Positions 1 through 44,742 of a stretch of 51,945 bases of DNA are shown piece after piece. Position 1 is the first letter of the stretch, and every line of letters begins with the position of its first letter. The stretch lies in sequence record NZ_CP027240.1. One strand, 5' to 3'. A program made the position numbers and the translations under genes. The DNA comes from a plasmid. The notes below the pieces were generated by a model, which searched no databases, was not told the DNA's origin, and saw only the letters and a program-made list of their open reading frames with translations.

Positions 1-153
1 CAGGCCGGCAGGGTCGACAATGTGAGGTGCGGTCACCGTGATGCTCCGTTCGAGAGTGCTGTGAAGGGTTCACTCGAAGATCACGCGGTGGCCGCTCCAC
101 GTCTACTACGACGAGGCCGGCAACCGCGTTACACCATCATCGGGGACTCAACT
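1..153 (-). mobile_element. IS256-family insertion sequence, copy A: right-end (transposase 5' end) fragment truncated by the window edge. Includes the first ~14 codons of the transposase (GTG start near 41-43) and terminal IR ...GGGGACTCAACT.
   Basis: Positions 1..153 are identical to 44593..44742, the 5' end and terminal IR of the full IS256 copy B. The sequence diverges from copy B immediately after CAACTC. Confidence 0.85.
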
Positions 154-483
154 CGCTCCTTCTCCTGAAGTAGGCGCCGGGGAGGGCTGTTCGGCGCTCG
201 ATGAAGCGTTCACGTCGGTCGTGGACGAGTCGCTGTCGTCCTCCAATAGCGCCCCGACGGTGATGATTCCCGCCAATGCGACACCGGCGCCGCCGAGTGC
301 GGCCCAAAACGTCCAGGGTGTCTTTGGCTTTGGCCGACGGAAGGTCATGGTGGTTCGCAGGCGACCCTCCTGTCGGGTGAGCAGCTCCCAGCCTTCTCGC
401 TGCTTGCGTGCGATCGTTTTCGACTCAGTGCCCCGAATCGCCTTGATCTCAGTGGTCTCGTACCGCGTTTTCTCGCTGGCCAT
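148..483 (-). CDS. Hypothetical membrane-anchored protein (one TM helix, Ser/Pro-rich tail). Probably the 5' part of a gene split by IS256; the 3' part lies at 43145..43321.
   Basis: ORF-track 111-aa ORF with a TM segment. Its stop codon is supplied by the IS256 terminal sequence. The reading frame continues without a stop across the predicted circular junction into 43321..43145. Confidence 0.5.
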   Translation of the reverse strand: MASEKTRYETTEIKAIRGTESKTIARKQREGWELLTRQEGRLRTTMTFRRPKPKTPWTFWAALGGAGVALAGIITVGALLEDDSDSSTTDVNASSSAEQPSPAPTSGEGAS

Positions 484-563
484 GTTTCTCCGTCAATCGA
501 TAGCGGTGTTGCAGGTGAACCCGTACCGAAGGACGGTAGATAAGGTGCGCGGTGCAGTTTGCA

Positions 564-1142
564 CTAACTGTCGGACAAGTAGCGGTACACCGACGTCCTG
601 TGCAGTCCGAAGAATCGGCCAAGTTCTGCCGAGGTGTAGCCACCGGTGGCGTGCATCTCCCGCAATCTGTCGGCGTCGGCGGCGGAGAGCTTGGGTCGCC
701 GGCCCTTGTACTTGCCCTCTGCTTTGGCGCGGGCGACGCCCTCGCGGGTGCGTTCGCGATTCATGGCGACCTCGAACTCGGCAGCCATCCCGAGAACTTG
801 GAACATCATTGCGCCGGCGGGGTCGGCGGGATCGTATGTCGCGCGTCCGACAGTCAGGGCCGCACCCTTGGCGCGAATCTCGTCGGCGATGTCGAGGAGG
901 TCACGGAGTGACCGTCCGAGGCGATCGAGCTTGGTCACCACGATCTCGTCGCCATCGCGCAGCTCGCTTAGCGCCCGCTCCAGTGCTGGACGCACGCGCC
1001 GACGACCGCTCACGCCTCGATCCAGATGGATCTTGTCCGGGGCGACGCCCAGGGTAATGAGAGCCTCCCGTTGGGTCTCGACGTTCTGCTCCACGGTCGA
1101 CACGCGCCCGTATCCGATCTTCACGCCCTCAGTGTCGCACAT
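564..1142 (-). CDS. Serine recombinase (resolvase/DNA invertase family)
   Basis: N-terminal GYGRVSTVEQ catalytic-Ser motif and a C-terminal HTH, ~190 aa. Res-like AT-rich site TGATAATCTCTCTTTATTTGTAC immediately upstream (1148..1175). Confidence 0.85.
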   Translation of the reverse strand: MCDTEGVKIGYGRVSTVEQNVETQREALITLGVAPDKIHLDRGVSGRRRVRPALERALSELRDGDEIVVTKLDRLGRSLRDLLDIADEIRAKGAALTVGRATYDPADPAGAMMFQVLGMAAEFEVAMNRERTREGVARAKAEGKYKGRRPKLSAADADRLREMHATGGYTSAELGRFFGLHRTSVYRYLSDS

Positions 1143-1318
1143 AGCCCTGATAATCTCTCTTTATTTGTACTACACTCCAACACAACGCCGGCATGAGTCC
1201 CCCCTATTCTTCGAGCTGCACAAACTTCCAACACGGGGAGAACGTGTCAGGTGTCGCGTTAGGCGATCGTCAAACGCGACAACAGCTGCGTGGGCCCTCC
1301 CGCCGAGGCCGGGCGGAC

Positions 1319-1349
1319 TTGACCTTCCAGTCAACTTGAAGGTTTACCT
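1319..1349 (+). promoter_or_regulatory. MerR-type promoter/operator: TTGACC -35, 19-bp spacer containing perfect dyad ACCTTC-N10-GAAGGT, then TTACCT
   Basis: Seen directly at 1319..1349, about 40 bp upstream of the permease start. A 19-bp spacer with internal dyad is the hallmark of MerR-family regulated promoters. A MerR-family gene follows the permease. Confidence 0.45.
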
Positions 1350-1390
1350 TTGGGGCTGCCCTGCAGCTGCTGTTTGATGGAGGCCCATCG

Positions 1391-2383
1391 ATGACCTGGA
1401 TCGAGCGCTTGCAAAGCGTGTTTGTCGCCGCGGCCGCTCTGGCCGGGTTGGGGGTCGGTCTTGCGACTCCGCTCGGTGCCAGCGGCGAGTACGTAGTAAT
1501 TCCGGCTCTGCTGGTGATGCTTATCGCTGTGTTCGTCCAGCTCGACGCCTCGAACTTGAAGGACGTGGGCAACGCCAAGGCGCTGGTCGCTGTCAGCTTG
1601 GTGTTGAACTACGTCTTCACGCCGCTTCTCGCTTGGGGCCTGGGTATTGGCTTGCTCGGTGAGCAGCCCGATCTTCGAATCGGGTTGTTGCTGTTGCTCG
1701 TCACCCCGTGTACCGATTGGTATCTCGTCTTCACCGCGATGGCGCGTGGCCATGCAGGAATCGCTACGGCGCTGCTTCCCGTCAATCTCGTGTTACAGCT
1801 GCTTTTGTTGCCGGTCTACGTGATGTTGCTCGGTGGTGAGGCTGCGATGGTCGACGCTGGCACCCTGCTGGAGGCAGTAGGGCTGATTCTCCTCACCCCA
1901 CTGGGAGTGGCGTTCATACTGCGCTGGGTCAGCGCGGGATTCAAGGGCCGGCGATGGCGGGAACAGCACCTGATGAGGTGGGCGAACCGGGTGGTCACGC
2001 CGCTGCTGTGCCTAGCGGTCTTCGCGATGTTCGCCTGGCAAGCACCCGTGGTCGCCGAGAACGGCACCGAAATGCTGCTGCTACTACCTCCGCTACTCCT
2101 GTTCTTCGTCATCCTCCCGCTGACCGCCACCGGGGCAGCTCGACTGCTGCACCTACCTGGTCCACAGCGGGTCACTCTGACAATGGTGACCACGGCCAGG
2201 AATTCGCCCATCGCTCTGGGTATCGCGGTGGCGGCTTTCCCTGATCGGCCGCTGATTGCTGTCGCTCTGGTGGTGGGACCGTTGATCGAGTTGCCGATCC
2301 TCGCAGTACTCAGTCAAATCATCCGCCACCGGGACAAGGGCGCCCTCGATGAACAGGCTGCCGTCTCCATCGCCGACCGGTAA
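1391..2383 (+). CDS. Polytopic membrane permease of the ACR3/BASS (bile acid:Na+ symporter/arsenite efflux) superfamily; putative metal(loid) efflux
   Basis: 330 aa, ~10 predicted TM helices, Pro/Cys-containing TM motif (LVTPCTDWYL). Genetic linkage to a MerR regulator and an ArsR-CDF pair. Confidence 0.45.
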   Translation: MTWIERLQSVFVAAAALAGLGVGLATPLGASGEYVVIPALLVMLIAVFVQLDASNLKDVGNAKALVAVSLVLNYVFTPLLAWGLGIGLLGEQPDLRIGLLLLLVTPCTDWYLVFTAMARGHAGIATALLPVNLVLQLLLLPVYVMLLGGEAAMVDAGTLLEAVGLILLTPLGVAFILRWVSAGFKGRRWREQHLMRWANRVVTPLLCLAVFAMFAWQAPVVAENGTEMLLLLPPLLLFFVILPLTATGAARLLHLPGPQRVTLTMVTTARNSPIALGIAVAAFPDRPLIAVALVVGPLIELPILAVLSQIIRHRDKGALDEQAAVSIADR

Positions 2384-2412
2384 CCTTGAAGACCCGCTAG
2401 GAGAACGAGCGC

Positions 2413-2814
2413 ATGCGTATTTCTGAAGTGGCCAGGCGCAGCGGAGTGCCGGCCACCACGCTGCGGTACTACGAAAAGCTCAGCCTGATCAGCTCGACCC
2501 GGGCCAGCAATGGCTACCGCCAGTACGGGCCAGAGGTTCTCGAGCGTCTGTCGTTCATCCACGGGGCGAAGCAGATGGACTTGGAACTCGACCAGATCAA
2601 ATGGCTGCTCCAGGTCACCGCAACGGGGACCTGCACCAATACTCGAGATGCCCTGCACCCACTGCTCACCGATCGGCTACGCGAGGTCGACGACACCATT
2701 CAAAGGCTGGAAGAGCTCCGGTCAGTGCTGGACCGGTCACTCGATCACGTTGCAACATGCCCCGACAGCACCAGGCCCTGCCGGTCCGAGTGCGCCTTCA
2801 GCGCTCTCGTATGA
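2413..2814 (+). CDS. MerR-family transcriptional regulator with a C-terminal Cys cluster (metal-sensing type)
   Basis: N-terminal MRISEVARRSGVPATTLRYYEKLSLI HTH typical of MerR. C-terminal cysteines C...C...C. Confidence 0.8.
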   Translation: MRISEVARRSGVPATTLRYYEKLSLISSTRASNGYRQYGPEVLERLSFIHGAKQMDLELDQIKWLLQVTATGTCTNTRDALHPLLTDRLREVDDTIQRLEELRSVLDRSLDHVATCPDSTRPCRSECAFSALV

Positions 2815-3030
2815 CCCCTGGTGGTCGACCCAAGCAGAGCTACGGGGGCTCCACGACACCGCCGGACTGCCAGAACCGGTCTGCGACGCATCGGCGCTGC
2901 ACAACTAATCTGCGCACGAGCCAGCATCGTTCCTGATCAGCTCGCCCTTCTCGGCCCTCATGCACCCCGGTGCGCTATGACTGATGCCACCACATCCCCA
3001 CTGATCGCCATACTGAGCTATCATCGTCAT

Positions 3031-3480
3031 ATGACGATTGATAGCGTATCGGGTGACCCGGTCGACGAGTCCCTCCAGTTGGAGGATCGCAGCGTGTATG
3101 CGGCGCTGTTTCATGCTTTGGCAGAGCCGACGCGGTTGGCGATTCTCGAGCACCTCGGTAGCGGCGAGCACCGGGTGCGGGATGTGGTTGACCACATGCA
3201 CCTGGCGCAGTCCACGGTGAGCAAGCATCTGGCCTGTCTTCGGGACTGCGGGCTGGTGACTGTGCGGATCGAAGGCAGGGCCTCCTGGTTCTCGCTGGCG
3301 GACCCAACTCGGTTGGAAGCCCTGATCGAGTCTGCAGCGGCGCTCCTGAGCGCATCGGGGACCACGCTTTCGCTGCGCGAGCACCGCGATCTCCATGATC
3401 GCGATGCGGCTCAGTGGACCGAGACTGTCATGCGAGTGCCCCAATTGTCGCAGCCATCCACCAGTCGAGGAAAGGTCTGA
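3031..3480 (+). CDS. ArsR/SmtB-family metalloregulator (CmtR/CzrA-like). Start uncertain; alternative ATG at 2977.
   Basis: LAEPTRLAILEHL ... STVSKHLACLRDCGLV winged-HTH with Cys residues. Its stop lies 8 bp before the CDF gene start. Confidence 0.75.
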   Translation: MTIDSVSGDPVDESLQLEDRSVYAALFHALAEPTRLAILEHLGSGEHRVRDVVDHMHLAQSTVSKHLACLRDCGLVTVRIEGRASWFSLADPTRLEALIESAAALLSASGTTLSLREHRDLHDRDAAQWTETVMRVPQLSQPSTSRGKV

Positions 3481-3487
3481 AACCACT

Positions 3488-4423
3488 ATGAGTGCTGGAC
3501 ACAGTCACGGACCGAGTTCGGAGGAAGCCGCGTCGGCACCGGACTTCCGTAGAAAGCTCGGCATTGCCTTCGCGCTGGTCTTCTCCATCGTCGTTGCTCA
3601 GGGTGTCGGCGCCTGGATCACCGGCAGCCTGGCGCTGCTCGTTGATGTCGTCCACTCATTGACTGATTCCATCGGGCTGCTCGTCGCGCTGGTCGCGGCG
3701 GTACTGATGGTTCGTCCCTCAAACAAGCGGCGAACCTGGGGTTTTCGCCGCATCGAGGTCTTGGCGGCCCTCGGCCAGGCACTGCTCCTGGCCGGCGTCA
3801 GCGTCTACGCCCTTGTCGAAGCAGTCCAGCGCTGGAGCAACCCTCCAGAAGTCGCGGGTGCAGAGTTGCTGATTTTCGGCGTCGTCGCGTTGGCTCTCAA
3901 TATCGCTGCCGCACTCGTGCTCGCGTCCAGCCGCGGCGCGAACTTCAACATGCGCGCCGCGTTCCTGGAAGTCCTCATGGACGCGCTGGGAACGCTGGCG
4001 GTCATCGTCTCAGCCGTGCTCATCATGACCACCGGGTTTCAGCGTGCCGACACCATCGCCGCTGTCGCTATAGCGCTCATGATCATTCCCCGGGCTTTCC
4101 TTCTGGTTCGAGAAACTACCCACGTCCTCATGGAGTTCACCCCGGCTGGCCTCGACCTCGACCGGGTCCGAGCGCACATCCTTGCGATCGACCACGTGCG
4201 GGAGGTCCACGACCTCCACGCCTCGACTGTCGCCACCGGTCTTCCCACACTGTCTGCCCATGTCGTTCTTGACGATGAGTGCTTCGAGGACGGTCATGCC
4301 CCGGAGATCCTCGATACCGTGCGGCACTGTGTGGCCGAGCATTTCCACATCGAGCACACCACCTTCCAGCTTGAGACCCAGCACCACCGAGATCACGAAC
4401 CCCCGGTCGCGCGGCACCCCTGA
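3488..4423 (+). CDS. Cation diffusion facilitator (CDF) family divalent-cation efflux protein (CzcD/ZitB-like)
   Basis: His-rich N-terminus (MSAGHSHG), six TM helices, HSLTDS and EVLMDALG motifs, C-terminal cytoplasmic His-rich domain. Confidence 0.85.
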   Translation: MSAGHSHGPSSEEAASAPDFRRKLGIAFALVFSIVVAQGVGAWITGSLALLVDVVHSLTDSIGLLVALVAAVLMVRPSNKRRTWGFRRIEVLAALGQALLLAGVSVYALVEAVQRWSNPPEVAGAELLIFGVVALALNIAAALVLASSRGANFNMRAAFLEVLMDALGTLAVIVSAVLIMTTGFQRADTIAAVAIALMIIPRAFLLVRETTHVLMEFTPAGLDLDRVRAHILAIDHVREVHDLHASTVATGLPTLSAHVVLDDECFEDGHAPEILDTVRHCVAEHFHIEHTTFQLETQHHRDHEPPVARHP

Positions 4424-4619
4424 AGTACGGGAGATAGGGAACCGAACACGGGTATATGCGCCGACGTCTTGAAGATGCATGATCTAACTCAGTGGAGCCC
4501 GCCCGGCCGGCTTCGCCTTGGTGGATGAAGACCTGGTCGGCGCTTGCCCGAGTTCGGTGATCACCGAGCCGGTCAGTATGGTCAGCCACGGTGGGGGTCC
4601 TCGAAGGGAAGATGTTGGC

Positions 4620-5279
4620 ATGGCGAGACTGTCCATAAGGCCTAGAGCAGTGCGCGGTCGCCGAAACCGCACTTCCTGCAAGTCCATCGGAACAGTAGCC
4701 GCAGCCATAGTCGGCATGCTGACGCTGACAAGCTGCGCGACCGGAGCTGACGCTGTCGCTACCGGCGAGACGTTCGACTTCGTCAGCCCGAATGGCCAGT
4801 TGGAGATTTTCTACGACCCTCCGGAGGAGCGTAGGAAGATCGCGCCGATGTCTGGGCCGAACCTGCTCGACCCCGAGATGACCGTGGCCGTCGGTGATTA
4901 TCCCGGCGATGTGGTGCTGATCAACCTGTGGGGCCAATGGTGTGGGCCGTGCCGAGCGGAGATCGACGATCTACAACGCTTGCAGGACAAGTACGAATCC
5001 CGAGGGTTCACCAATGTCGGCGTCAATTTGCGTGACCCGAATCGCGACAAACCCGTTGACTTCGTCAAGGACAACGGGGTCACCTATCCCTCGATCTGGG
5101 ACCCGTCCCAGGCTGCGGTCGCGGCACTGGACGGTTTTCCCACGTCGGTGGTGCCGGCGACACTGATCCTCGATAAGCAACATCGGGTGGCTGCGGTGTT
5201 TCTAGCGGAGATCACTGATTATCAGTTGGAGCCGCTCATCGAGAGGCTGCTCGCGGAGCCGGTCGGGAGCGACGCTTGA
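4620..5279 (+). CDS. TlpA/ResA-like thiol-disulfide oxidoreductase lipoprotein (thioredoxin fold, WCGPC)
   Basis: [11 protein letters not shown] active site. Signal peptide/lipobox LTSC. Start chosen at an internal ATG of the longer track ORF. Confidence 0.8.
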
Positions 5280-6145
5280 TGAGCACGGTGTTGCTCGCGC
5301 AGTCCATTGGTGAGGCCTTTCAGCAGACAGCGGCTTCCGGCCCACTTCTGCTCGCGCTAGGTGCGTGCATGCTCGCGGGGCTCGTGTCGTTCGCCTCGCC
5401 GTGCGTGGTTCCGCTCGTGCCCGGCTACCTGGCCTATCTCGCAAGCATTGTCGGTGCGGAGCGCCCGGCAGTCACAGTGCAGGCGGCAGAACAACGTCGC
5501 GCCGCATCGGGCACGCTCACGCTTGAGGAGAAGCGCTACCGATCGTCATCGCGCAAACGCGTGGTTCTGGCGGCTCTGCTGTTCGTGGCAGGGTTCACGG
5601 TGGTGTTCGTCCTGCTGTCGGCGATGGTGTTGGGGGCCGTGCAGTATCTCGCCCCCCAGCAGGAGCTACTGCAGCGGCTCGGCGGAGTAGTCACAATCCT
5701 CATGGGGCTGGTGTTCATCGGGGTCGTTCCCGTACTTCAGAGGGACACCCGCATGCAGCCCAAAGCTCTGTCGACCTGGGCGGGCGCACCGTTGCTCGGG
5801 GCCGTCTTCGCTCTGGGGTGGACCCCCTGTCTTGGTCCGACGCTGGCGGCGGCCTTGTCAGTGGCCGCTGGGACTGGAATCGACGCGGCTCGCGGAGTGC
5901 TCCTTATTGTGGCGTACTGCTTGGGGCTTGGACTGCCTTTCGTGGTAGTGGCGTTTGGGTCTACGAGGGCCATCCGCACCGTCGGATGGCTGCAACGACA
6001 CACCCGGAAAATTCAGATCGCCGGCGGCGTCATGCTCATCATCGTCGGTTTGCTGCTGCTTAGTGGTCTTTGGACTCAGTTCGTGTACTGGCTTCGCGAC
6101 TTCGCCATCTCCGACACCACGCGGGGGTGGTGCACGGTTAGGTGA
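5276..6145 (+). CDS. ccdA: CcdA/DsbD-core family cytochrome c-type biogenesis thiol-disulfide transporter. The 3' end is replaced by IS3 sequence (native stop 6 codons downstream of the insertion point).
   Basis: Two conserved TM cysteines ([17 protein letters not shown] and [12 protein letters not shown]). The ORF runs into the IS3 terminal repeat at 6123. The native frame resumes after the IS at 7391 and gives ...DTTLPI*. Confidence 0.8.
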
Positions 6146-6154
6146 CAGGGTTAG

Positions 6155-7015
6155 TCACGCGGCCTGAGGGGCCTCATGGTTGATGATGGTCTCGTATTCG
6201 ATCGGGGTCAATCTGCCGAGGCGGTCCTGCCGTCTGCGGCGGTGGTAGGTGCGTTCGATCCAGTGCACGATGGCAGCCCGGAGCTCGTCTCTGGTGGCCC
6301 AGGATCGGCGGTCAAGGACGTTGTTCTGCAGCAGCGAAAAGAAGCTCTCCATGGCCGCGTTGTCACCGCACGCGCCGACTCTGCCCATCGACCCGAGCAT
6401 GCCGTGTCGCCGGATGGCCTTCTGCATCTTCTTCGAGCGAAATTGAGATCCTCTATCGCTGTGCAGGATGCAACCGGTCACCTCGCCCCGCCTGGCGACA
6501 GCGCTGTTCAGAGCGTTGACCGCCAGGCGGGACTTCATTCGCGCATCGATCGAATACCCGACGATCCGTCCCGAGTAGACGTCCTTGATCGCACACAGGT
6601 AGAGCTTGCCCTGGCCGGTGCGGTGCTCGGTGATGTCGGTCAGCCACAGCTCGTTCGGACCGTAGGCGGTGAAGTCCCGCTCGACCAAATCGTCGTGTAC
6701 GGGCTCGCCGGCCTTGCGGTGCTTGCCGCGGCCCTTTCGGCTGATGGCGCTGGTCCAGCCACCGGACGAGCAGATCCGCCAAGCGGTTCGCCGGCACATC
6801 TTCTCGCCCGCGGCCTCGGCCTCGTCGGCCAGGTAGCGGTACCCGAACTCCGGGTCTTCGCGGTGGGCATCGAACAGGGCGTTGGCCCGGTACGCCTCGG
6901 CCAGTTCGGCGTCGGTCACGGGCTTTTTGAGCCACCGGTAGTAGGGCTGACGAGCAATTCCGAGTACCCGGCACGTCACCGTGACAGCGATGCCGTCAGC
7001 GGCGAGCTCGTTCAC
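6155..7015 (-). CDS. IS3-family transposase OrfB (DDE integrase core)
   Basis: 286 aa with rve-type DDE motifs (LWLTDITE..., HSDRGSQF...). Overlaps the OrfA stop by GTGA. Confidence 0.9.
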   Translation of the reverse strand: MNELAADGIAVTVTCRVLGIARQPYYRWLKKPVTDAELAEAYRANALFDAHREDPEFGYRYLADEAEAAGEKMCRRTAWRICSSGGWTSAISRKGRGKHRKAGEPVHDDLVERDFTAYGPNELWLTDITEHRTGQGKLYLCAIKDVYSGRIVGYSIDARMKSRLAVNALNSAVARRGEVTGCILHSDRGSQFRSKKMQKAIRRHGMLGSMGRVGACGDNAAMESFFSLLQNNVLDRRSWATRDELRAAIVHWIERTYHRRRRQDRLGRLTPIEYETIINHEAPQAA

Positions 7016-7371
7016 GAGCGGGTACCACCTTTTCCCGGCAGATTCGCCTGGGACAGGTAGGCAGCAGCGCGGCGCAGGACCTCGTTCTCCTGCTCCAGCA
7101 GACGTACTCGGCGCTTGGCCTCGCGCAGCTCACGCGACTCGGCCGACGTGGTGCCGGGTTTGATCCCGGCCTCCACGTCGGCCTTGCGCATCCACTTCTG
7201 CAACGTCACTGGATGGACACCGAAGTCCCGGGCGATCTGGTCCAGGGAGACACCGTCCTCGCGGGACTGAGCCACCCGGACGACGTCGTCGCGGAACTCC
7301 TGGGGGTAGGGCTTGGGCACAGCAACATCCTTCCAGGCCCGCCCCGCAGGGCAAGCCAGATCAGATGTCAC
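7012..7371 (-). CDS. IS3-family transposase OrfA (HTH). Slippery heptamer GGGAAAA 18 nt before its stop allows -1 frameshift into OrfB.
   Basis: 119 aa with HTH and leucine-zipper-like region. The OrfB frame is open upstream of its GTG through the heptamer. Confidence 0.85.
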   Translation of the reverse strand: MTSDLACPAGRAWKDVAVPKPYPQEFRDDVVRVAQSREDGVSLDQIARDFGVHPVTLQKWMRKADVEAGIKPGTTSAESRELREAKRRVRLLEQENEVLRRAAAYLSQANLPGKGGTRS

Positions 7372-7681
7372 CTACTCATGCATCAGCCCCCGCTGCCGAT
7401 CTGAGTTAGGAGTGTGCGCACGCAGATTGTCGTCCGGTCGCTGGCAGCCATCATCATCAATGGTCTGTGGGCTGCTCGTATCGGAGCTACCGCTCCCCGA
7501 ACCGTCGCTGGCACACTGGCTCCGTCATTGCCGCCCACCATTGCTGTCCGTACCTGACCGTGCCTCTGCGTTACCAGAAGTCGGTCGCGAGCCGTCGGCA
7601 CGCCTCCGGGAATGCTCAGAATTCCGTGCGAGACGGTGTCCGGTCGTCTGGTTGCACAGCCTCTAAAAGTAGGGAAGTCAC

Positions 7682-8323
7682 TTGAGTAAGAACCTGGCAT
7701 TGTCCTTGGCCCTGATCGGTGTTGTCGGGCTCATCCTGGCCGGCATGCTGGTCTGGAACAGTCAAGACGAGTCATCCCCTGAGGCGGTCGGGGACGAGCC
7801 GACCGCGCAATTGGTGCGTGAGGACAGCCCCCGATTGTCCGAGGGTGAGGAAGCAGTATTCGTCGAGTACCTCGATTTCGAATGTGAAGGGTGTTTGGCT
7901 CTGTACCCGGTGATCGAGGACCTACGGGACAAGTACGGGGATCGGGTTGAATTCGTGGTGCGTCACATGCCGTTGCACGATAACTCGGTCAATGCAGCAC
8001 TGGCGGCGGAAGCTGCGGCCGAACAGGGTGAGTTCGAGGCCATGTATCAGCGACTGTTCGACTCCGTTGACCAGTGGGGCCACCAATCCACTTCCCAGGC
8101 GGAAACTTTCGTCGGTTACGCCGATGAACTGGGACTAGATGTCGACCGTTTCCGTGCCGATGTCAACGATCCGGCCACGTTGGCCAGCATCGAACAGAGC
8201 AGACAAGACGCTCAAGCCTTCGGAGTTACCGGCACGCCGACGCTGTTTCTGGACGGCCAACGCCTCGAGCCGACAAGCGTTGCCGATCTGGAAGCCAGCA
8301 TCGAGGCAGCCCTGAATGACTGA
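7682..8323 (+). CDS. dsbA: DsbA-family thiol:disulfide oxidoreductase (secreted/membrane-anchored, CEGC active site)
   Basis: N-terminal TM/signal segment. FECEGCLALYP CxxC in a thioredoxin fold. C-terminal GTPT cis-Pro loop. Confidence 0.85.
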   Translation: MSKNLALSLALIGVVGLILAGMLVWNSQDESSPEAVGDEPTAQLVREDSPRLSEGEEAVFVEYLDFECEGCLALYPVIEDLRDKYGDRVEFVVRHMPLHDNSVNAALAAEAAAEQGEFEAMYQRLFDSVDQWGHQSTSQAETFVGYADELGLDVDRFRADVNDPATLASIEQSRQDAQAFGVTGTPTLFLDGQRLEPTSVADLEASIEAALND

Positions 8324-8948
8324 AACCGCGGCAGGGTCCGAGGCTGACTTCGCACACGTCCAGGTGGGCGCCCGTCGGCTCGGTGCACTGCTGATCGGTG
8401 CAGGGCTCATCGGGCTCGCCGCAGCCATCGTGCTGCTGGTAGAGAAACTCGAACTACTGGTCAACCCTGACTACATACCCACCTGCGACGTCAGCCCGAT
8501 TCTCTCGTGTGGCTCAGTCATGACCACACCCCAGGCTGAGGCCTTCGGCATCCCGAACCCGATTATCGGAATCGCAGGGTTCGCCGCGGTCGCTGTCGTC
8601 GGTGGGGCAGTCCTGGCCGGCAGTGGATTTCGCCGCTGGTTTTGGGTTGGCGCCCAAGTCGGTGTCACCTTCGCGGTGGTGTTCGTCCACTGGCTGATCT
8701 ATCAAAGTCTCTACGTAATCGGCGCTTTGTGTCCGTACTGCATGGTCGTGTGGGCGGTGACAATCCCGATATTCTGGTACACCACCGTGTACAACCTCCA
8801 GCACTTCCAGGGGTCCACGCCGCGATGGGCGCGACAGAGCATTGAGATCGCCACGGGTTACCACGGCGTACTTCTCACCGCCTGGGTTCTCCTCGTCATC
8901 ACACTGATCGCGGCCCGTTTCTGGGACTACTGGATCAGCTTGATGTAA
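8316..8948 (+). CDS. Vitamin K epoxide reductase (VKOR) family protein, the DsbB-analog partner of DsbA in actinobacteria
   Basis: Loop Cys pair (PTCDVSPILSCGSV) plus TM CPYC active site, five TM helices. Gene overlaps the dsbA stop. Confidence 0.85.
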   Translation: MTETAAGSEADFAHVQVGARRLGALLIGAGLIGLAAAIVLLVEKLELLVNPDYIPTCDVSPILSCGSVMTTPQAEAFGIPNPIIGIAGFAAVAVVGGAVLAGSGFRRWFWVGAQVGVTFAVVFVHWLIYQSLYVIGALCPYCMVVWAVTIPIFWYTTVYNLQHFQGSTPRWARQSIEIATGYHGVLLTAWVLLVITLIAARFWDYWISLM

Positions 8949-9775: not shown

Positions 9776-10430
9776 GTGGCGAGGTCTGACCGTGGTCCAC
9801 AACTCGGCCGCCGGGGCTTTCTGACCGGTGGCGCCGCTCTGGCCGGCGGCGTCGTAGGATTCGGTGTCGCCGATAGGACCGCCACTTCCAGCTCCGCAGA
9901 CAGGGCTGTTCTCACCGATTCTCGCGCGGTCGGAGACGCGACGGAGCCATTCTATGGCGACCGACAGGCCGGAGTGACCACCGCGCCGCAGGCGCACGCG
10001 GTCTTCCTGGCCTTTGACCTCAGCAAGAAGGCGCACCGAGAGAACCTCACTGGAGTGCTGCGCACCTGGACTCACGACGCCGCCCGGTTGGCGCGGGGTC
10101 GAAGCGGACTTGCCGATCTCCAGCCCGAGTTGGCAGAGCATCCTGCCCGACTGACAGTCACCATCGGTTTCGGTCCCAACCTGCTCGGCAAAGTCGGACT
10201 GGGCGGCCGCAGTCCGCAGTGGCTTCGACCGCTCCCCGCTTTCCCGCAGATTGACCGTCTCGAGGACAGATGGTCCGGCGGAGACCTGTTGCTTCAGATC
10301 TGCGCGGATGACCCACTCACGGTGGCTCACGCCGCCCGCGTCCTGGCCTCCGGTGTCCGTGGTGTCGCCACCCAGCGGTGGGTCCAGCGCGGATTCCGGC
10401 GGGCAGTTGGCACCGATCCGTCCGGCCGGA
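9776..10430 (+). pseudogene. efeB: DyP-type peroxidase EfeB (Tat-secreted), 5' part, interrupted by IS21-family element
   Basis: Twin-arginine signal RRGFLTGGAALAGG. DyP N-domain. Frame ends ...GTDPSGR at the IS21 left end. Confidence 0.8.
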
Positions 10431-10554
10431 TGTCAAGGGCCAGTGAGTTCTGCCCAGGGGCGGTCTTGAGACCTGCCCGGTGACGGTCACCAGATCTGCC
10501 CGGAGATGGCCATGGGATCTGCCCAGGGGCTGGCCATCTCGGGTCCTCGGGTTG

Positions 10555-10768
10555 TCAGGCCAAGGGCTTCACCCCCTGGCCTGCGAGTGCTTGGGAGAGG
10601 CGGACGGAGTCGCCGCTGGTCTGGCAGACGTGGGCGTGGTGCAGGAGCCGGTCCACTGTCGCGGTGGCGATGGTCTTGGGCATGAGTTCGTCGAAGCCGG
10701 CCGGGTGCAGGTTCGAGCTGATCGCGATGGCTCGTTTTTCGTAGGCGGCGTCCACCAGGCGGTAAAGC
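10555..10768 (-). pseudogene. istB: IS21 helper ATPase IstB, C-terminal fragment (split by ISL3)
   Basis: Sequence ...LYRLVDAAYEKRAIAISSNL... continues the 12224..12815 ORF across the ISL3 insertion. Confidence 0.8.
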
Positions 10769-12223
10769 GGCTCTTCCGGATCCGGAGTGCGTAGCTGGGG
10801 TTCGCCGGTGATGCGGTGAGGCACAAGATGTAGGGGTCCTGGGGCGTGTGAAGATGCAGGTTCCTACGCCACGCATCGAACACCCCAGGACCCGCTTTGA
10901 ACGCTACCGCCAGCCTGCTTGCCGACACCATCTGCCGCACCGTCGAGCTCGGGGTGACGATCACCGACGCCGCTGTGGCTGACGAGCTCACGCACCTGTT
11001 CTGCGCCCCGGTCACACTCGACCCGGTCTGCGCCGAGTGCGGGATGGCGGGCCGTTTGCGGGACCACGTCCAGCGGAAGGTCACGGATCTGCCGATCGTG
11101 GGTCATCCCACCAGACTGCATGTGCGGGTACCGCGCTTCACCTGCGACAACATCGAATGCGAGACGCGCATCTTCCAGCAGCGGATGCCGGCGTTGGCCG
11201 AGCCGCGGGCCAAGACCACGCGTCGCTGCAGCCGCTGGATCCTGCAGCGTCTGGCGATCGACCGCACCAGCGTGTCCGCGGTCGCCAAGGCCCTCGGGCT
11301 GGGGTGGGATCTGGTCAACGATCTAGCACTGTCGGAGACTCGCACGATCGTCTACGACCAGCCCGGCCACTTCGACGGCGTCCGCATTCTCGGAGTCGAC
11401 GAGCACAAATGGAAGCACGTGCGCGGCGACGGCAGCAGCTCATTCGTCACCGTCCTGGTCGACCTGACCCCGGTCGTGGACGGCACCGGCCCGTCTCGCC
11501 TGTTGGACATGGTCCCCGGGCGCTCGGCGAAGGTGCTCACCGAGTGGCTCGACGCCCGTGACCAGGTGTTTCGAGACCGAGTCAAGGTGGTCACGATGGA
11601 CGGGTTCGCCGGCTACCACTCCGCCGCCGCCAAAGCCGTTCCCGCTGCCCGGACGGTGATGGACCCCTTCCACGTCGTGCGCCTGGCCGCCGACAAGCTC
11701 ACCGTGTGCCGCCAACGCATCCAGCAGGCCACCACCGGGCACCGGGGCCGCACGGGCGATCCGCTGTACGGCATCCGCCGGACCTTGAACACCCGAGCCG
11801 AGCTGCTCACCGACAAGCAGAAGGTGCGCCTGTTCAAAGCATTCACCGCCAACGATGCGCACGCGGCGGTCGAGGTCACCTACGGCGTCTACCAGCGACT
11901 CATCGCCGCCTACGACGCCGCCGGCAAGCGGGAGGGCAAGATCGCGATGTACAAGCTCCTGCGCTCGATCCGGGCCGGGGTGCCCAAGGAGCTGCCCGAG
12001 CTCGCCCAGCTCGGTCGCTCACTGTGGAAACGGCATCGCGAGATCCTCGCTTACTTCGACGTGGGTGCCTCCAACGGACCCGTCGAGGCCATCAACGGCC
12101 GCCTCGAGCACCTCCGCGGGATCGCCCTGGGCTTCCGCAACCTCAAGCACTACATCTTGCGGTCACTCATTCACTCCGGCCGGCTTCAGGATCGGATCAA
12201 TGCACTCTGATTCCGGAAGAGCC
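10769..12223 (+). mobile_element. ISL3-family insertion sequence, copy 1 (1455 bp). IRs GGCTCTTCCGGATCCGGAGTGCGTAG / GGCTCTTCCGGAATCAGAGTGCATTG. 8-bp TSD GGTAAAGC. Inserted in istB.
   Basis: TSD at 10761-10768 and 12224-12231. A second near-identical copy lies at 49622..51076. Confidence 0.9.
10897..12210 (+). CDS. ISL3-family transposase
   Basis: 437 aa, N-terminal zinc-finger Cys pairs, DDE core. Near-identical paralog at 49635..50948. Confidence 0.9.
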   Translation: MNATASLLADTICRTVELGVTITDAAVADELTHLFCAPVTLDPVCAECGMAGRLRDHVQRKVTDLPIVGHPTRLHVRVPRFTCDNIECETRIFQQRMPALAEPRAKTTRRCSRWILQRLAIDRTSVSAVAKALGLGWDLVNDLALSETRTIVYDQPGHFDGVRILGVDEHKWKHVRGDGSSSFVTVLVDLTPVVDGTGPSRLLDMVPGRSAKVLTEWLDARDQVFRDRVKVVTMDGFAGYHSAAAKAVPAARTVMDPFHVVRLAADKLTVCRQRIQQATTGHRGRTGDPLYGIRRTLNTRAELLTDKQKVRLFKAFTANDAHAAVEVTYGVYQRLIAAYDAAGKREGKIAMYKLLRSIRAGVPKELPELAQLGRSLWKRHREILAYFDVGASNGPVEAINGRLEHLRGIALGFRNLKHYILRSLIHSGRLQDRINAL

Positions 12224-12815
12224 GGTAAAGCCCTTCAGCGGCGTCGGTGGCCACCGGCAGCAGTCCGATGTCGTCGACGATGATCAGGTCGGCGCGCAGG
12301 ATCTTGGCGATGGCCTTGGTGACGGTGTCGTCGGCGCGGTGACTGCGCAGGAGAACGCCGAGGTCTTCCAGGGTGAACCAGGAGACCTTCAGTCCCTCCT
12401 CGACCGCCTGCTGCCCGAGGGCCTCGAGCAGGAACGTCTTGCCGGTCCCAGAGGGCCCGCAGACGACGAGGTTCTCCTTGCGGTGCACCCACTCCAGCGT
12501 CCGCAACGCCTGTTGAGTCGGTGCTGGAATCGAGGAGACGGACTCGTCCCACGCGTCGAACGTCTTGCCAGTGGGAAACCCGGCGGCAGCGCGTCGAGTG
12601 GCCAGCGAGGCCCGGTCACGGCCGCTGGCCTCCTCAGCCAACAGCGCACGCAGCACCTCGGCCGGGTCCCAGCGTTGGGCTTTGGCGGTGGCGATCACCT
12701 CGGGCGCGTGGCGGCGAATGTGCGGCAGTCTCAGGCGCCGCAACACGGCGTCCAGGTCTGCGGGCAGCGGCGGACTGGCCGGCACACCCAGCGCCGGAAC
12801 CTCGGTGGTGGTCAT
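12224..12815 (-). pseudogene. istB: IS21 helper ATPase IstB, N-terminal fragment (Walker A GPSGTGKT), truncated by ISL3
   Basis: CGPSGTGKTFLLEAL P-loop. 4-bp overlap with the istA stop. Confidence 0.85.
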
Positions 12816-14353: not shown

Positions 14354-14543
14354 GTTGTCCCTCCTCGGGGCGATGGGCGCTTCAGCACCGCTATCGCACC
14401 CGAGGAGGGGCCCCGAACCGCCCAAGCGGGCCGGGAAACAATGTCGTGTCGGGCAGATCCCATGACCGCCAGCGGGCAACTCTCACGTCCGCCAGCGGGC
14501 ACCTTCGTGACCGCCTACGGGCAGTCTCTCGTGTCCGTCGTCA

Positions 14544-15133
14544 GCCGGACGCAGCGGAATCTGTTTGGCCAGCTTGACGGCACCGTCAACCCCGCCCCCG
14601 CCGAATCCGACTTCGAGGCGCTGCTGTTTTCAGACGGCGCGGAACAGCAATGGATGCGTGGGGGGACGTCGCTGGTGCTGCGCCGCATCCGGATGACGAT
14701 GAACTCGTGGGAGGAGATCGACCGAAACAGCCGCGAGCTTTCGGTGGGACGAAAACTGGACACGGGTGCTCCGCTCACTGGCACAGACGAGCACGACCCC
14801 GCAGACTTCACGGCGATGAACGAGGTCGGTTTGCCCGTCATTCCCGCCGAATCGCATATCGCCCGTGCGCATTCGCGCAACCGAAGCGAGACAATCCTAC
14901 GTCGACCGTACAACTACGACGACACCCCGCAGCCAGGTGAGATCAGCAACTCCGGACTGCTGTTCGCCGCCTACCAAGCCGATCCGGTACGGCAGTATCT
15001 CCCGATCCAGCAACGACTCGCCGAGCAGGACATGCTTAACACCTGGACTGTGCCGATCGGATCAGCTGTCTTCGCCATTCCGCCCGGATGCCAGGAGGGT
15101 GGCTATATCGGCCAAGGAGTGATGGAGGGATAA
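14544..15133 (+). pseudogene. efeB: DyP-type peroxidase EfeB, 3' part (downstream of IS21)
   Basis: ...TQRNLFGQLDGTVNP... DyP C-domain motif. In frame with 9776..10430 once IS21 and one TSD copy are removed. Confidence 0.8.
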
Positions 15134-26904: not shown

Positions 26905-26937
26905 TTGCCCACCTTCCTTCGCGTGACCCCTCTTCAG

Positions 26938-26952
26938 CGTCCATAGTGGACG
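26938..26952. promoter_or_regulatory. mer operator: perfect palindrome CGTCCA-TAG-TGGACG in the merA-merR divergent intergenic region
   Basis: Seen directly, ~35 bp upstream of the merA ATG and ~60 bp upstream of the merR GTG. Confidence 0.55.
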
Positions 26953-27009
26953 TTCCAGCGCAGGGGAAGGTCAAGGCGAACATGGACGAGAGCCGAGAAA
27001 GGGGCCACT

Positions 27010-40580: not shown

Positions 40581-40640
40581 AGCTCTCCTAATTGGTGAGC
40601 AACACCGAGTTTGAGCGCCAACTCAGACTCTTGACTTTCG

Positions 40641-40670: not shown

Positions 40671-40726
40671 CAGTCATTTCAGGTGCTGCATGGAGTGTTC
40701 AGTTTTCAGTCAGGCAGCTGGCTACT

Positions 40727-41005: not shown

Positions 41006-41069
41006 CCGCGAGCGGCGCCCTCGAGGACCGACGCGCCTTGGAGGTCGGGTCACTCCCCAATCAGCTGGC

Positions 41070-42148: not shown

Positions 42149-42400
42149 TGTCCATTCCTCTCCACGAAGGTAGCCGGGCGAAGCTAGCTGTGACGACAGC
42201 TCTAGCGAGCCTAGCTCGAGTAGTAAGACTACCTTGCGTGTCTAGCACAGACTGTGGCAACAACGCTAGCTAAGAAGACTAACTGTGCTTTACAGGCTAT
42301 CAGTGATAGCAAAGCTATGACTGCGGCGCTAGCTATTACGAAGTAACTAGCGTACGGTGCCAAGGCCAACAGGCCCAGTGGAGTGCGGTCGCAATCGGCT

Positions 42401-42655
42401 TCAGTCAAGTAGGTCGAGGTAGGTGCGGCGCGCCTTCATTGCGTGAATGACTTCGGTACTGCCGTCGTCGTAATGCAGAGCGACCAATTCCAGCACTCGG
42501 GCCTGGGAGTCGAATCCAAGCGTGAGGACCCGTTGGGGGTGGTCGTCGTCGAGTGGTCCGGCCAGGAGGGGAGTGGCCAGCGCGGCGAGGATGTCGTTGT
42601 CGCTGATGCCGTGCTTGCGAGCGGATTGCCGGATGATCACGAGGCGGCGGCCCAC
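42401..42655 (-). CDS. brnT: BrnT-like (DUF497) type II toxin
   Basis: KHGIS...RVLTLGF...VIHAMKARR pattern resembling BrnT. Overlaps the upstream RHH-protein gene. Confidence 0.5.
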   Translation of the reverse strand: MGRRLVIIRQSARKHGISDNDILAALATPLLAGPLDDDHPQRVLTLGFDSQARVLELVALHYDDGSTEVIHAMKARRTYLDLLD

Positions 42656-42894
42656 TGGGCCAGCGCCTGACGGATCGCCTCGGACCGGTTGAGGTGCTCG
42701 CGTTCAGCACGAGCCATGACGGCCCCAAGCTCGGCGTCAGTAAGGCGGACCGGCACGACCTTCGCTGCGTGTTCGGCTCGCGCCGGGCGGCCAAGGCGCT
42801 TGCCCAACCACTCGGGGTCGTAGCCAGTTTCGGCTTCATCGACCCACTGGGCGATCTGCTCCTCGGAAACGTTGTGGCCCTGAATCTTCCGCTC
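42637..42894 (-). CDS. brnA: BrnA-like RHH antitoxin
   Basis: C-terminal VPVRLTDAELGAVMARAEREHLNRSEAIRQALAQW RHH motif. 19-bp overlap with the toxin gene. Confidence 0.5.
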   Translation of the reverse strand, partial: ERKIQGHNVSEEQIAQWVDEAETGYDPEWLGKRLGRPARAEHAAKVVPVRLTDAELGAVMARAEREHLNRSEAIRQALAQWAAAS

Positions 42895-43144
42895 CATGAA
42901 CACAATCGTAATACGAATACCTGGCCAGGGGAAGGAACGCACTGGGGTCAGCCAAGCGACGGGTTTGTTAGGTACCCGGGTCCTTCGGCTCTCGCCCGAA
43001 CCCCGGCTCAACATCATCGCGGCCGAAAGCGTCGACCAGGACCGCCCCGGGCCCTGCTAGCGAGCACCGGCCACACCTGTCGAGACGCTAACAGCGACCA
43101 CAGGTGCATTTGGTTTTGACCAGCAGTGACGACAGAATCTGACA

Positions 43145-43321
43145 TTATCGGCACATCCCGTCGTTACTCAGCGTGAACTCGACCGGTTCGCCCACGGTGA
43201 TCTCCAGCTCTACCTCGCCCGACCGAACCTTGTCGCTGTAGATCGCGGTCTGGCCGAACTTGCATGGCTCTCCGCTCGGGCTCGTATCGCAGATCATCGG
43301 GTCAGCCGAGGAAGAGGGCTC
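43145..43321 (-). pseudogene. 3' part (59 codons, ...CKFGQTAIYSDKVRSGEVELEITVGEPVEFTLSNDGMCR*) of the gene whose 5' part is 148..483, separated by IS256-mediated linearisation
   Basis: In-frame continuation of the 148..483 ORF when 154..161 is joined to 43322..43329 (shared CGCTCCTT). Protein-like composition. Stop at 43145. Confidence 0.45.
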
Positions 43322-43329
43322 CGCTCCTT

Positions 43330-44742
43330 GGTCAAGTCCCAGGTAGTGGTGTATCGCCTGTGATCCTTCGTAGGGGTTAGGCGCTGAGTTCGAGGACGGG
43401 GTCGGTGCTCACCTCCGTCGTCGTGTCGGTCACTGGAGCGAGTCGGCAGCGGGCGAGGACTTCGAGGCCGAGGTAGCGGCGGCCTTCGGCCCATTCGTCG
43501 GTCTGTTCGGCCAGCACGGCCCCGACGAGGCGAACGATGGCCTGCCGGTTGGGGAAGATGCCCACGGCGTCGGTGCGGCGCCGGATCTCCTTGTTCAGCC
43601 GCTCGGAGGGGTTGTTGGACCAGATCTGGGTCCAGACGTCCTTGGGGAAGGCGGTGAAGGCCAGGATGTCGGCGCGGGCGGCGTCGAGGTGCTCGGCCAC
43701 CGCCGGCAGCTTGGCGGCCACGTAGTCCAGCAGCCGGTCGAACTGGGCGTGCACCGCGGCGGCGTCGGGCTGGTCGTAGACCGAGTGCAGCATCGCCTTG
43801 ACCGCCGGCCACATCGACTTCGGGGTCACGCTCATGAGGTTGGCGGCGTAGTGGGTGCGGCAGCGCTGCCAGGTGGCGCCGGGAAGGTTGGCCGCGATGG
43901 CCTCGACGAGGCCGGCGTGCGCGTCTGAGGTCACGAGCCGGACCCCAGCCAGGCCGCGGGCCACGAGGTCGGCGAAGAACTCGTTCCACGCCGCCCCGGT
44001 CTCGGCCGTGGCCACCCGCATGCCCAGGACCTCGCGGTGCCCGTCACCGTTGACACCGGTCGCGATCAGGACCACGGCGTTGATGACCCGCCCGCCCTCG
44101 CGCACCTTCATGGTCAGGGCGTCGGCGGCGACGAACGTGAAGGGTCCGGCCTCGTCGAGGGGCCGGTGGCGGAAGGCCTCGACCTGGGCGTCGAGGTCGG
44201 CGGCCATCCGGGACACCTGCGACTTCGACAGGCTGTTGATGCCCAGCTGCTTGACGAGCTTGTCCATCCGGCGGGTGCTCACCCCGGCCAGATAACAGTC
44301 CGCCACCACCGTGATCAGCGCCGACTCGGCCCGCTTGCGCCGCTCGAGCAGCCACTCGGGGAAGTACGTCCCGGTGCGCAGCTTGGGGATCGCGACGTCG
44401 ATCGTGCCGACCCGGGTGTCCAGGTCGCGGTGCCGGTAGCCGTTGCGCTGCGCGGTCCGGTCCGGGCTGCGTTGGCCCCACTCGGCACCGACCACCGCGT
44501 CGGCGTCGGCGGACAGCAGCGCGTTGATCACCGTCTGCAGCAGGTTGCGCATGAGGTCCGGGGAGGCTTCCGCCAGGGCCTCGCCAAGCAGGCCGGCAGG
44601 GTCGACAATGTGAGGTGCGGTCACCGTGATGCTCCGTTCGAGAGTGCTGTGAAGGGTTCACTCGAAGATCACGCGGTGGCCGCTCCACGTCTACTACGAC
44701 GAGGCCGGCAACCGCGTTACACCATCATCGGGGACTCAACTC
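43330..44742 (-). mobile_element. IS256-family insertion sequence, copy B (complete, ~1413 bp). Imperfect IRs GGTCAAGTCCCAGGTAGTGGTGTATCGC / GAGTTGAGTCCCCGATGATGGTGTAACGC.
   Basis: Ends defined by comparison with copies A and C. Left flank CGCTCCTT (43322-43329). Confidence 0.85.
43377..44624 (-). CDS. IS256-family (Mutator-like) transposase
   Basis: 415 aa with DDE motif typical of IS256 transposases. Three copies or fragments in the window. Confidence 0.9.

What the first reader, a model, noticed from the sequence alone, without database searches (positions are those of the whole stretch)
1..44742. Two direct IS256 copies carry the same 8-bp sequence on their inner flanks and split one gene: a cointegrate signature around a ~43-kb plasmid-like segment
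Copy A ends at ...GGGGACTCAACT followed by CGCTCCTT (154-161). Copy B begins at GGTCAAG preceded by CGCTCCTT (43322-43329). A single IS insertion would carry its 8-bp duplication on the outer sides. Finding the two copies of one TSD on the inner sides of two direct IS copies is what a cointegrate gives, or an IS-IS recombination that integrates a circle already carrying one IS. When 154-161 is joined to 43322-43329, the 148..483 ORF reads straight on for 59 more codons (EPSSSADPMICDTSPSGEPCKFGQTAIYSDKVRSGEVELEITVGEPVEFTLSNDGMCR*) with protein-like composition. The enclosed 43 kb contains a full plasmid backbone: rep, par, relaxase, kfrA and a toxin-antitoxin pair.
Basis: partly seen in the sequence, partly recalled or inferred. 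Interest (0 to 1): 0.8.

Follow-up and report, generated by a model that had tools for sequence, protein, structure and literature searches.

The report
IS256-flanked cadmium transposon in a plasmid
The window is a whole circular Dietzia-type metal-resistance plasmid, and the "two IS copies with the duplication on their inner sides" are the two arms of an ordinary composite transposon, carrying a cadmium/heavy-metal pump, that landed in a plasmid gene; this is a textbook structure, not a plasmid integrated into something larger.

Summary
CGCTCCTT lies at 154-161 and 43322-43329, exactly abutting the ends of a 1412-bp IS256-family element. Joining the two sites restores a gene that aligns without gaps to about 50 intact homologs.

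The geometry is misread. The window ends at IS position 1259 and begins at position 1260, and seven independent assemblies read straight across that join, so it is a complete 51,945-bp circle. "Copy A" is the tail of a copy that starts at 47953 and is itself split by a nested IS3/ISL3 insertion.

On the circle, the two direct copies bracket only 3.2 kb: an ArsR/SmtB regulator, an 81-aa protein and a cadmium-family P-type ATPase. The 8-bp duplication lies on the outer flanks of that unit. The 43-kb arc is therefore the target plasmid, not an inserted circle.

The cargo is 99.97-100% identical to a widespread TrwC-type element, and the identity stops exactly at both IS ends. The same IS-cargo-IS junctions occur in a Nocardioides MAG. 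Sister assemblies show the same site with a single IS, and with the unit without the nested ISs.

Verdict: a new member of a known kind (composite transposon, as Tn4001 and Tn5432). Low interest.

The parts
43322..43329 (.). Target-site duplication, left copy (CGCTCCTT), abutting the left end of IS copy B
43330..44741 (-). IS256-family element, copy B, intact. 1412 bp, imperfect terminal inverted repeats, transposase 43377..44624 on the minus strand (415 aa).
   Evidence: PF00872 at 2.5e-138. NF033543 IS256 family at 337.8 bits against a cutoff of 150. Ends fixed by 7 external copies with 8-bp TSDs. IRs.
44742..47952 (.). Cargo, 3211 bp, captured from a TrwC-type element. Its first 8 bp (CGTTTCCG) and last 8 bp (CCTCTGGT) are the inferred duplications of the two original IS insertions.
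   Evidence: 99.97-100% identity to L027, L028, L030-L033, L035 and L036 (99.56% to L034), with homology stopping at both IS ends. The same junctions are in Nocardioides MAG contig L003.
45034..47106 (-). Heavy-metal (cadmium-family) P1B-type ATPase, 690 aa as the longest ORF
   Evidence: TIGR01525 at 604.5 bits (cutoff 346) and TIGR01512 at 514 bits (cutoff 313.5). PF00122 and PF00702.
47136..47381 (-). Conserved 81-aa protein of the operon, no family match
   Evidence: The exact sequence is indexed in 663 blocks of the assembly collection.
47402..47857 (+). ArsR/SmtB-family metalloregulator, divergent from the pump
   Evidence: PF01022. NF033788 at 84 bits against a cutoff of 55.
47953..48437 (-). 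IS256-family copy C, left 485 bp (identical to 43330-43814)
48438..51168 (+). Later insertion inside copy C. It is an IS3-family element (twin of 6123-7390, 3-bp TSD CAT at 48435-48437 and 51169-51171) that is itself split by an ISL3-family element at 49622-51075 (8-bp TSD AGATTGAC).
   Evidence: It is absent from sister scaffolds L018 and L021.
51169..51945 (-). IS256-family copy C, middle part (identical to 43812-44588). It runs to the last base of the window.
1..153 (-).
154..161 (.). Target-site duplication, right copy (CGCTCCTT)
162..483 (-). 5' part of the disrupted gene (membrane-anchored protein related to DUF4839/DUF4352 proteins). The present ORF 148..483 (111 aa) ends inside the IS.
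   Evidence: The 111-aa product is P0039, annotated in Dietzia cinnamea.
43145..43321 (-). 3' part of the disrupted gene. Homology to intact homologs ends at about 43156.

Best explanation
The window is a complete circular 51,945-bp metal-resistance plasmid of the Dietzia/Rhodococcus type. It carries a composite transposon built from two direct, identical copies of a 1412-bp IS256-family element around a 3.2-kb heavy-metal efflux module (ArsR/SmtB regulator, 81-aa protein, cadmium-family P-type ATPase). The unit is 6035 bp in its original form. Here it is 8769 bp, because one arm later received an IS3-family element that in turn received an ISL3-family element. Inferred history: (1) two separate insertions of the IS bracketed the cad module in a widespread TrwC-type conjugative element; (2) the transposase acted on the outermost left and right ends and moved IS-cad-IS as one piece into a gene of a 43,168-bp plasmid, making the 8-bp duplication CGCTCCTT on the unit's outer flanks; (3) the nested ISs arrived and inactivated the transposase gene of arm C, leaving arm B to supply transposase. 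What is shown: circularity, IS ends, the 8-bp rule, the duplication, the split gene, the origin and exact limits of the cargo, and the sister states. What is inferred: that step 2 was transposition of the whole unit rather than recombination at an IS already in place.
For: Circularity comes from contiguous IS coordinates at the window ends and seven independent contigs crossing the join at 99.97-100% identity. IS boundaries and the 8-bp duplication hold for 7 of 7 external copies. Neither arm has its own duplication: the four flanks are CGCTCCTT|B|CGTTTCCG and CCTCTGGT|C|CGCTCCTT. Every other IS in the plasmid does have its own. The restored target gene is collinear with intact homologs, and single-piece DNA matches span the joined site in Rhodococcus plasmids (H25-H28). 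The cargo is 99.97-100% identical to uninterrupted source contexts in 8 of the 10 loci L027-L036 (99.56% in L034; only partial, 99.5%, in L029), and identity stops exactly at both IS ends. The same two inner junctions are on a 3472-bp contig of a Nocardioides MAG, and that MAG's two other IS-left-end contigs show no similarity to this plasmid. Scaffolds L018 and L021, and L019 apart from a collapsed arm C, have all four junctions without the nested ISs. The arms are 100% identical to each other. The transposase is IS256 family. That family uses copy-out/paste-in with circular intermediates and 8-bp duplications (PMC7780238).
Against: No second insertion site of the whole unit with a different 8-bp duplication was recovered, so movement as a unit is inferred from one site plus a MAG fragment whose outer flanks are unknown. 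A Dietzia cinnamea assembly (L017) has a single IS at exactly this site with CGCTCCTT on both sides. That state could be the ancestor rather than a deletion product. The predicted donor junctions (source flank + duplication + IS end) were not found in JGI metagenomes. The unit is not in PLSDB.
Confidence: 0.6

Rival explanations
1. IS first, cargo second. One IS copy inserted into the gene and made the duplication (the state seen in L017). Later a circle carrying one IS plus the 3.2-kb cad module, looped out by recombination between the two arms in a donor, integrated by homologous recombination into the resident IS. The final sequence would be identical.
For: The single-IS state at the same site with the same duplication exists in D. 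cinnamea GCA_025151765.1 (L017). That same genome holds the cad module in its source context at 100% identity (L031). The MAG contig L003 (IS end - cargo - IS end) is equally what a circular IS+cargo molecule would assemble into. The two arms are identical.
Against: The single-IS state is also the expected product of arm-arm recombination deleting the cargo, so it does not show direction. No source context with flanking ISs was found.
Confidence: 0.3
2. Replicon fusion. A donor replicon carrying the IS formed a cointegrate with the 43-kb plasmid, and most of the donor was later deleted, leaving 3.2 kb.
For: Direct IS repeats with the target duplication facing the target replicon are the cointegrate topology. 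IS256 elements are reported to form tandem dimers as well as circles (title of Prudhomme et al. 2002, listed in the references of PMC7780238).
Against: The donor-side flanks of the two arms should then carry the same donor duplication, but they are CGTTTCCG and CCTCTGGT. A deletion ending exactly at an IS end and leaving a segment that coincides with the unit in a Nocardioides MAG would be needed. The small arc has no replication or transfer gene.
Confidence: 0.05
3. One reading: a 43-kb plasmid integrated or cointegrated into a larger replicon that continues beyond the window.
For: In the linear view the duplication lies on the inner flanks of 'copy A' and copy B.
Against: The window closes on itself inside one IS copy, and independent contigs cross the join. 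Nothing lies outside. Relatives are free plasmids of 27-98 kb.
Confidence: 0.02
4. Assembly artefact: the assembler duplicated or misjoined a repeated IS and the arrangement does not exist.
For: IS repeats are frequent sites of misassembly. L019 shows a collapsed arm.
Against: The same four junctions are present in several independent assemblies from different samples (L018, L019, L020, L021). The nested IS3/ISL3 insertion has clean duplications.
Confidence: 0.03

Closest known systems
Tn4001 (IS256 - aacA-aphD - IS256, staphylococci)
   Same: Two copies of an IS256-family element bracket a short resistance module. The family uses copy-out/paste-in and makes 8-bp duplications (PMC7780238). The unit is a few kb and plasmid-borne.
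   Different: The Tn4001 arms are inverted (my own knowledge), whereas here they are direct. The cargo here is a metal-efflux operon, not an aminoglycoside-modifying enzyme. The host is an actinobacterium. The transposase is a distant family member, not IS256 itself. One arm is inactivated by nested ISs.
Tn5432 (IS1249 - erm(X) - IS1249, Corynebacterium, Cutibacterium and other actinobacteria)
   Same: An actinobacterial composite transposon with two identical IS copies flanking a resistance gene, found on plasmids and chromosomes of several genera (PMC8304765).
   Different: IS1249 is a separate lineage: NCBIfam's IS1249 model scores only 23 bits here against a cutoff of 300. The cargo differs.
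cmtR/cadC-type regulator + P1B ATPase cadmium-resistance operons (e.g. cadCA; M. tuberculosis cmtR-Rv1993c-ctpG, from my own knowledge)
   Same: An ArsR/SmtB regulator, a small protein and a cadmium-family P-type ATPase.
   Different: The regulator does not reach the CmtR equivalog cutoff (35 bits against 150) and is transcribed divergently. No HMA domain was detected in the pump. Metal specificity was not tested.
IS26/IS6-family translocatable units and pseudo-compound transposons
   Same: Direct IS repeats bracket the cargo, a single-IS state exists at the same site, and an IS+cargo circle is possible.
   Different: The transposase is IS256 family, not IS6. Nothing here shows a transposase-catalysed targeted conservative reaction.

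Membership tests
IS256 family insertion sequence | Single Mutator-type DDE transposase gene | tested here: met
   PF00872 at 2.5e-138. NF033543 at 337.8 bits against a cutoff of 150.
IS256 family insertion sequence | Element of about 1.2-1.5 kb with imperfect terminal inverted repeats | tested here: met
   1412 bp. The ends GGTCAAGTCCC.../...GGGACTCAACT match at about 19 of the first 28 positions.
IS256 family insertion sequence | 8-bp (8-9 bp) target-site duplication | tested here: met
   7 of 7 external full copies have perfect 8-bp duplications. L017 has a single copy with CGCTCCTT on both sides.
IS256 family insertion sequence | Circular double-stranded intermediate with abutted ends | not testable with these tools
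   Needs PCR or sequencing reads of the end-to-end junction.
Composite (compound) transposon | Two copies of the same IS bracket non-IS cargo | tested here: met
   Copy B and copy C are 100% identical and in direct orientation around 3211 bp.
Composite (compound) transposon | Target duplication flanks the whole unit and not the individual arms | tested here: met
   The outer flanks are CGCTCCTT and CGCTCCTT. The inner flanks are CGTTTCCG and CCTCTGGT.
Composite (compound) transposon | The empty target is continuous in relatives | tested here: met
   Gap-free protein alignment across the join, single-piece DNA matches H25-H28, and about 50 full-length homologs. No 100%-identical empty site was found.
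Composite (compound) transposon | The same unit occurs at a second, different site with a different duplication | tested here: inconclusive
   The inner junctions are present in a Nocardioides MAG (L003), and that MAG's two other IS-left-end contigs are unrelated to this plasmid. The unit's outer flanks there are unknown.
Composite (compound) transposon | Demonstrated movement as a unit | not testable with these tools
   Needs a mating-out or transposition assay.
   The small arc holds only a regulator, an 81-aa protein and an ATPase.
   CGTTTCCG and CCTCTGGT lie 3.2 kb apart in the source element.
   CGCTCCTT is at both ends of the 43-kb arc. This feature is shared with composite transposition.
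IS26-type translocatable unit | IS6-family transposase | tested here: not met
   The transposase is IS256 family.

The most novel reading that the evidence does not exclude
The IS256-family element moves the cad module as a one-IS 'translocatable unit' that is inserted by the transposase specifically next to a resident copy of the same IS. This would be an IS26-like targeted conservative reaction in a copy-out/paste-in family. It would explain why the same plasmid site is seen with one IS (L017) and with IS-cad-IS, and why a MAG contig has the form IS end - cargo - IS end.
Probability: 0.03. Interest if true: 0.6.

Novelty: new member of a known kind. Interest (0 to 1): 0.2.

Why it matters
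It is a clean, fully traceable example of how a metal-resistance operon is lifted out of a conjugative element by two IS insertions and dropped into an unrelated plasmid, with later decay by nested ISs. That is useful for annotating this plasmid family and for naming the transposon, but it adds no new principle. The practical lesson for the scan is to test whether a window closes on itself before reading IS geometry. A duplication on the "inner" flanks in a linearised circle is the outer duplication of the complementary arc.

Tried and rejected
- Alternative IS boundaries. The identity between copies runs one base further left (T) and two bases further right (CG). With boundaries of 43329-43743, the flanks no longer match. 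External copies fix the ends at GGTCAAG...CAACT, so the extra bases are coincidence.
- PLSDB searches. Neither the plasmid nor the IS-cad-IS unit is there. The closest IS in PLSDB is 87% identical.
- Exact-protein look-up of the 151-aa ArsR ORF. Nothing is on record, probably because callers use a later start (145 aa).
- Two metagenome scans for the predicted donor junctions (source flank + CGTTTCCG + IS left end; IS right end + CCTCTGGT + source flank). Both gave 0 hits. This is uninformative rather than refuting.
- M. luteus pSGAir0127 as the source of the cargo. It matches only 45169-47954, because an IS481 cuts the pump there.
- Pfam and NCBIfam on the restored gene gave no family. Only more distant homologs carry PF16127 (DUF4839).
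- No way was found to decide the order of events (unit transposition versus IS-first). The arms and the single IS in L017 are identical in sequence, so there are no informative SNPs.


Full report
**1.

The octamer CGCTCCTT lies at 154-161, immediately after ...GGGGACTCAACT. It also lies at 43322-43329, immediately before GGTCAAGTCC.... It occurs three times in the window on both strands against two expected, so finding it at both exact IS junctions is not chance.

I fixed the ends of the element independently. An exact-match scan of one genome per species found the same IS at 99.7-100% identity in Rhodococcus sp. SJ-3, Nocardioides soli and Nocardioides MAGs. All seven full copies are 1412 bp, run from GGTCAAG to CAACT, and are flanked by a perfect 8-bp duplication, different in each case. 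Copy B is therefore 43330-44741.

The transposase (43377..44624, minus strand) is Mutator/IS256 type. PF00872 scores 2.5e-138 and NF033543 scores 337.8 bits against a cutoff of 150.

**2. The split gene holds**

It aligns without a gap across the join to a 267-aa Rhodococcus qingshengii plasmid protein (124/164 identical). It also aligns to about 50 proteins of 263-277 aa at 98-99% query coverage, the best at 90% identity. In DNA, Rhodococcus plasmids match the joined site in one piece (query 827-1405, join at 1000).

One addition: the homologs run about 100 aa further. Homology to them stops at about 43156, where 96-99.8% identity to Dietzia plasmid backbones begins. The gene was therefore already 3'-truncated at a mosaic breakpoint.

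**3. The window is a closed circle**

The repeat search showed a third stretch of the IS at 47952-48437 and a fourth at about 51169-51945.

- Base-by-base comparison shows that 47953-48437 equals 43330-43814.
- It also shows that 51169-51945 equals 43812-44588, and that 1-153 equals 44589-44741.
- The last base of the window and the first base are therefore consecutive positions of one IS copy.
- Seven independent contigs from other assemblies align at 99.97-100% straight across 51945|1: L017, L018, L020, L021, L024, L025 and L026.

**4. Copy C carries a later, nested insertion**

The segment 48438-51168 is an IS3-family element, a 100% twin of 6123-7390, with a 3-bp duplication CAT. It is itself split at 49622-51075 by an ISL3-family element with an 8-bp duplication AGATTGAC. 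That ISL3 element is 93-96% identical to the one at 10769-12224.

The arithmetic fits: 485 + 777 + 153 = 1415, which is 1412 plus the 3-bp duplication. Every other IS in the plasmid has its own duplication. Only the two IS256-family copies lack one individually.

**5. What lies between the copies on the short arc**

The segment 44742-47952 (3211 bp) encodes three proteins:

- a cadmium-family heavy-metal P-type ATPase (TIGR01525 at 604 bits, cutoff 346; TIGR01512 at 514 bits, cutoff 313.5);
- a conserved 81-aa protein;
- a divergent ArsR/SmtB metalloregulator (NF033788 at 84 bits, cutoff 55).

There is no replication or transfer function. Read around the circle, the order is: CGCTCCTT | IS (B) | CGTTTCCG...cargo...CCTCTGGT | IS (C) | CGCTCCTT.

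The duplication therefore flanks the outside of an IS-cargo-IS unit. That unit is 6035 bp in its original form and 8769 bp with the nested ISs. The rest is a 43,168-bp plasmid with one target site.

**6. Where the cargo came from**

An exact look-up of the 81-aa protein found it in many assemblies. In 9 of the 10 contexts shown (L027, L028, L030-L036) the whole cargo is present, at 99.97-100% identity in eight of them and 99.56% in L034. In most of these contexts it sits inside a TrwC / ArdC / Prim-Pol element next to a CBASS system; in L034 it lies between IS3-family copies instead. The tenth context, L029, is the IS481-cut M. luteus plasmid and matches only 45169-47954 (99.5%). In all nine full-length contexts the identity stops exactly at the two IS ends.

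In the source the sequence reads ...CTGGCGAT-CGTTTCCG-CCCTGAAGG... on one side and ...CGCCG-CCTCTGGT-GGGAGGACGG... on the other. The cargo thus runs from one 8-bp site to another 8-bp site. That is what two independent insertions of an 8-bp-duplicating IS on either side of the operon would leave on their inner faces.

**7. The unit elsewhere, and sister states of this site**

- A 3472-bp contig of a Nocardioides MAG (L003) is IS right end - cargo - IS left end, at 99.86% identity with identical junctions. That MAG's two other IS-left-end contigs (L011, L012) share nothing with this plasmid beyond the IS.
- The 111-aa truncated product is annotated in Dietzia cinnamea (P0039).
- Scaffolds L018 and L021 have all four junctions without the nested ISs.
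- L019 has the same four junctions with a collapsed arm C. L020 shows the arm C side.
- L017, from D. cinnamea GCA_025151765.1, has a single IS at the site with CGCTCCTT on both sides. That genome also holds the cargo in its source context (L031, 100%).

**8. Mechanism**

IS256-family elements transpose by copy-out/paste-in through a circular intermediate and make 8-bp duplications (PMC7780238). IS256 arms of Tn4001 are reported to give several product types, including tandem dimers and IS circles (a title cited in that paper).

*Best reading (0.6).* Two insertions created IS-cad-IS in the source element. The transposase then used the outermost left and right ends and pasted the whole unit into the plasmid gene. 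The single-IS plasmids are arm-arm recombination products.

*Main rival (0.3).* The IS came first (the L017 state), and an IS+cad circle then entered by homologous recombination. The final sequence is the same, and the copies carry no informative differences.

*Disfavoured.* A one-IS replicative cointegrate with later deletion is unlikely, because the donor-side flanks differ and lie 3.2 kb apart in the source.

**9. Comparison with known systems**

This is a composite transposon in the classical sense. The closest analogues are Tn4001 (IS256 arms) and, among actinobacteria, Tn5432 (IS1249 arms; PMC8304765). The differences are the direct orientation of the arms, the metal-efflux cargo, the particular IS, and one arm disabled by nested ISs.

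I found no description of this unit in PLSDB or in a literature search on IS256, composite transposon and cadmium. It is a new member of a known kind.

**10. Negative results**

The predicted donor junctions were not in JGI metagenomes. No 100%-identical empty site was found. No second complete insertion site of the unit was recovered.

**11. Verdict**

The feature is ordinary. Interest 0.2.

Noticed in passing
window 51945|1: The window is a complete circular replicon linearised inside an IS copy. Any feature near either end should be read on the circle.
   Followed up: yes
window 48438-51168; 6123-7390; 10769-12224: An IS3-family element (3-bp TSD CAT) sits inside IS256 copy C and itself contains an ISL3-family element (49622-51075, TSD AGATTGAC). 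An intact twin of the IS3 element is at 6123-7390 (TSD CGC). A 93-96% relative of the ISL3 element is at 10769-12224 (TSD GGTAAAGC).
   Followed up: yes
window about 10426-14544: An IS21-family element (istA 12812-14479, shortened istB 12186-12815) appears to be interrupted by the ISL3 element at 10769-12224. Relatives in Rhodococcus and Dietzia plasmids match on both sides of the ISL3.
   Followed up: partly
window about 43145-43160: The disrupted gene is also 3'-truncated (168 aa against about 267 aa). Rhodococcus-type homology ends and Dietzia backbone homology (96-99.8%) begins at about 43155. This is a mosaic breakpoint older than the transposon insertion.
   Followed up: partly
window 564-8948, 16259-18253, 25504-27399: Heavy load of metal and redox genes: resolvase, ACR3/SBF-like transporter, MerR, CDF transporter, redoxin, DsbD, VKOR, CopD-CtaG fusion, and a MerA-like reductase with MerR. 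The plasmid is a metal-resistance plasmid even without the cad transposon.
   Followed up: partly
L027-L036 (e.g. L032 1-16246): The source context of the cad module is a widespread TrwC / ArdC / Prim-Pol element in actinobacterial chromosomes and plasmids (records identified include Micrococcus luteus and Dietzia cinnamea). It carries a CBASS-like set (SMODS nucleotidyltransferase, patatin, Cap2-like E1/E2) beside the relaxase.
   Followed up: no
window 44755-44762 (minus strand) and 162-175 versus 44750-44763: A third CGCTCCTT lies inverted 14 bp inside the cargo. The sequences to the right of both IS copies share CCTGAAG at nearly the same distance. This may be chance or a weak target preference of the IS.
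   Followed up: no
window 700-794 versus 28107-28201: A 95-nt inverted repeat at 73% complementarity. One arm lies in the resolvase gene at 564-1142, so there may be a second, diverged recombinase gene near 28100.
   Followed up: no
L002 (M. luteus pSGAir0127) 3998-5005: In that plasmid the same cad pump is cut at its 3' end by an IS481-family element, at the position corresponding to window 45169. This is an independent IS hit on the same module.
   Followed up: partly
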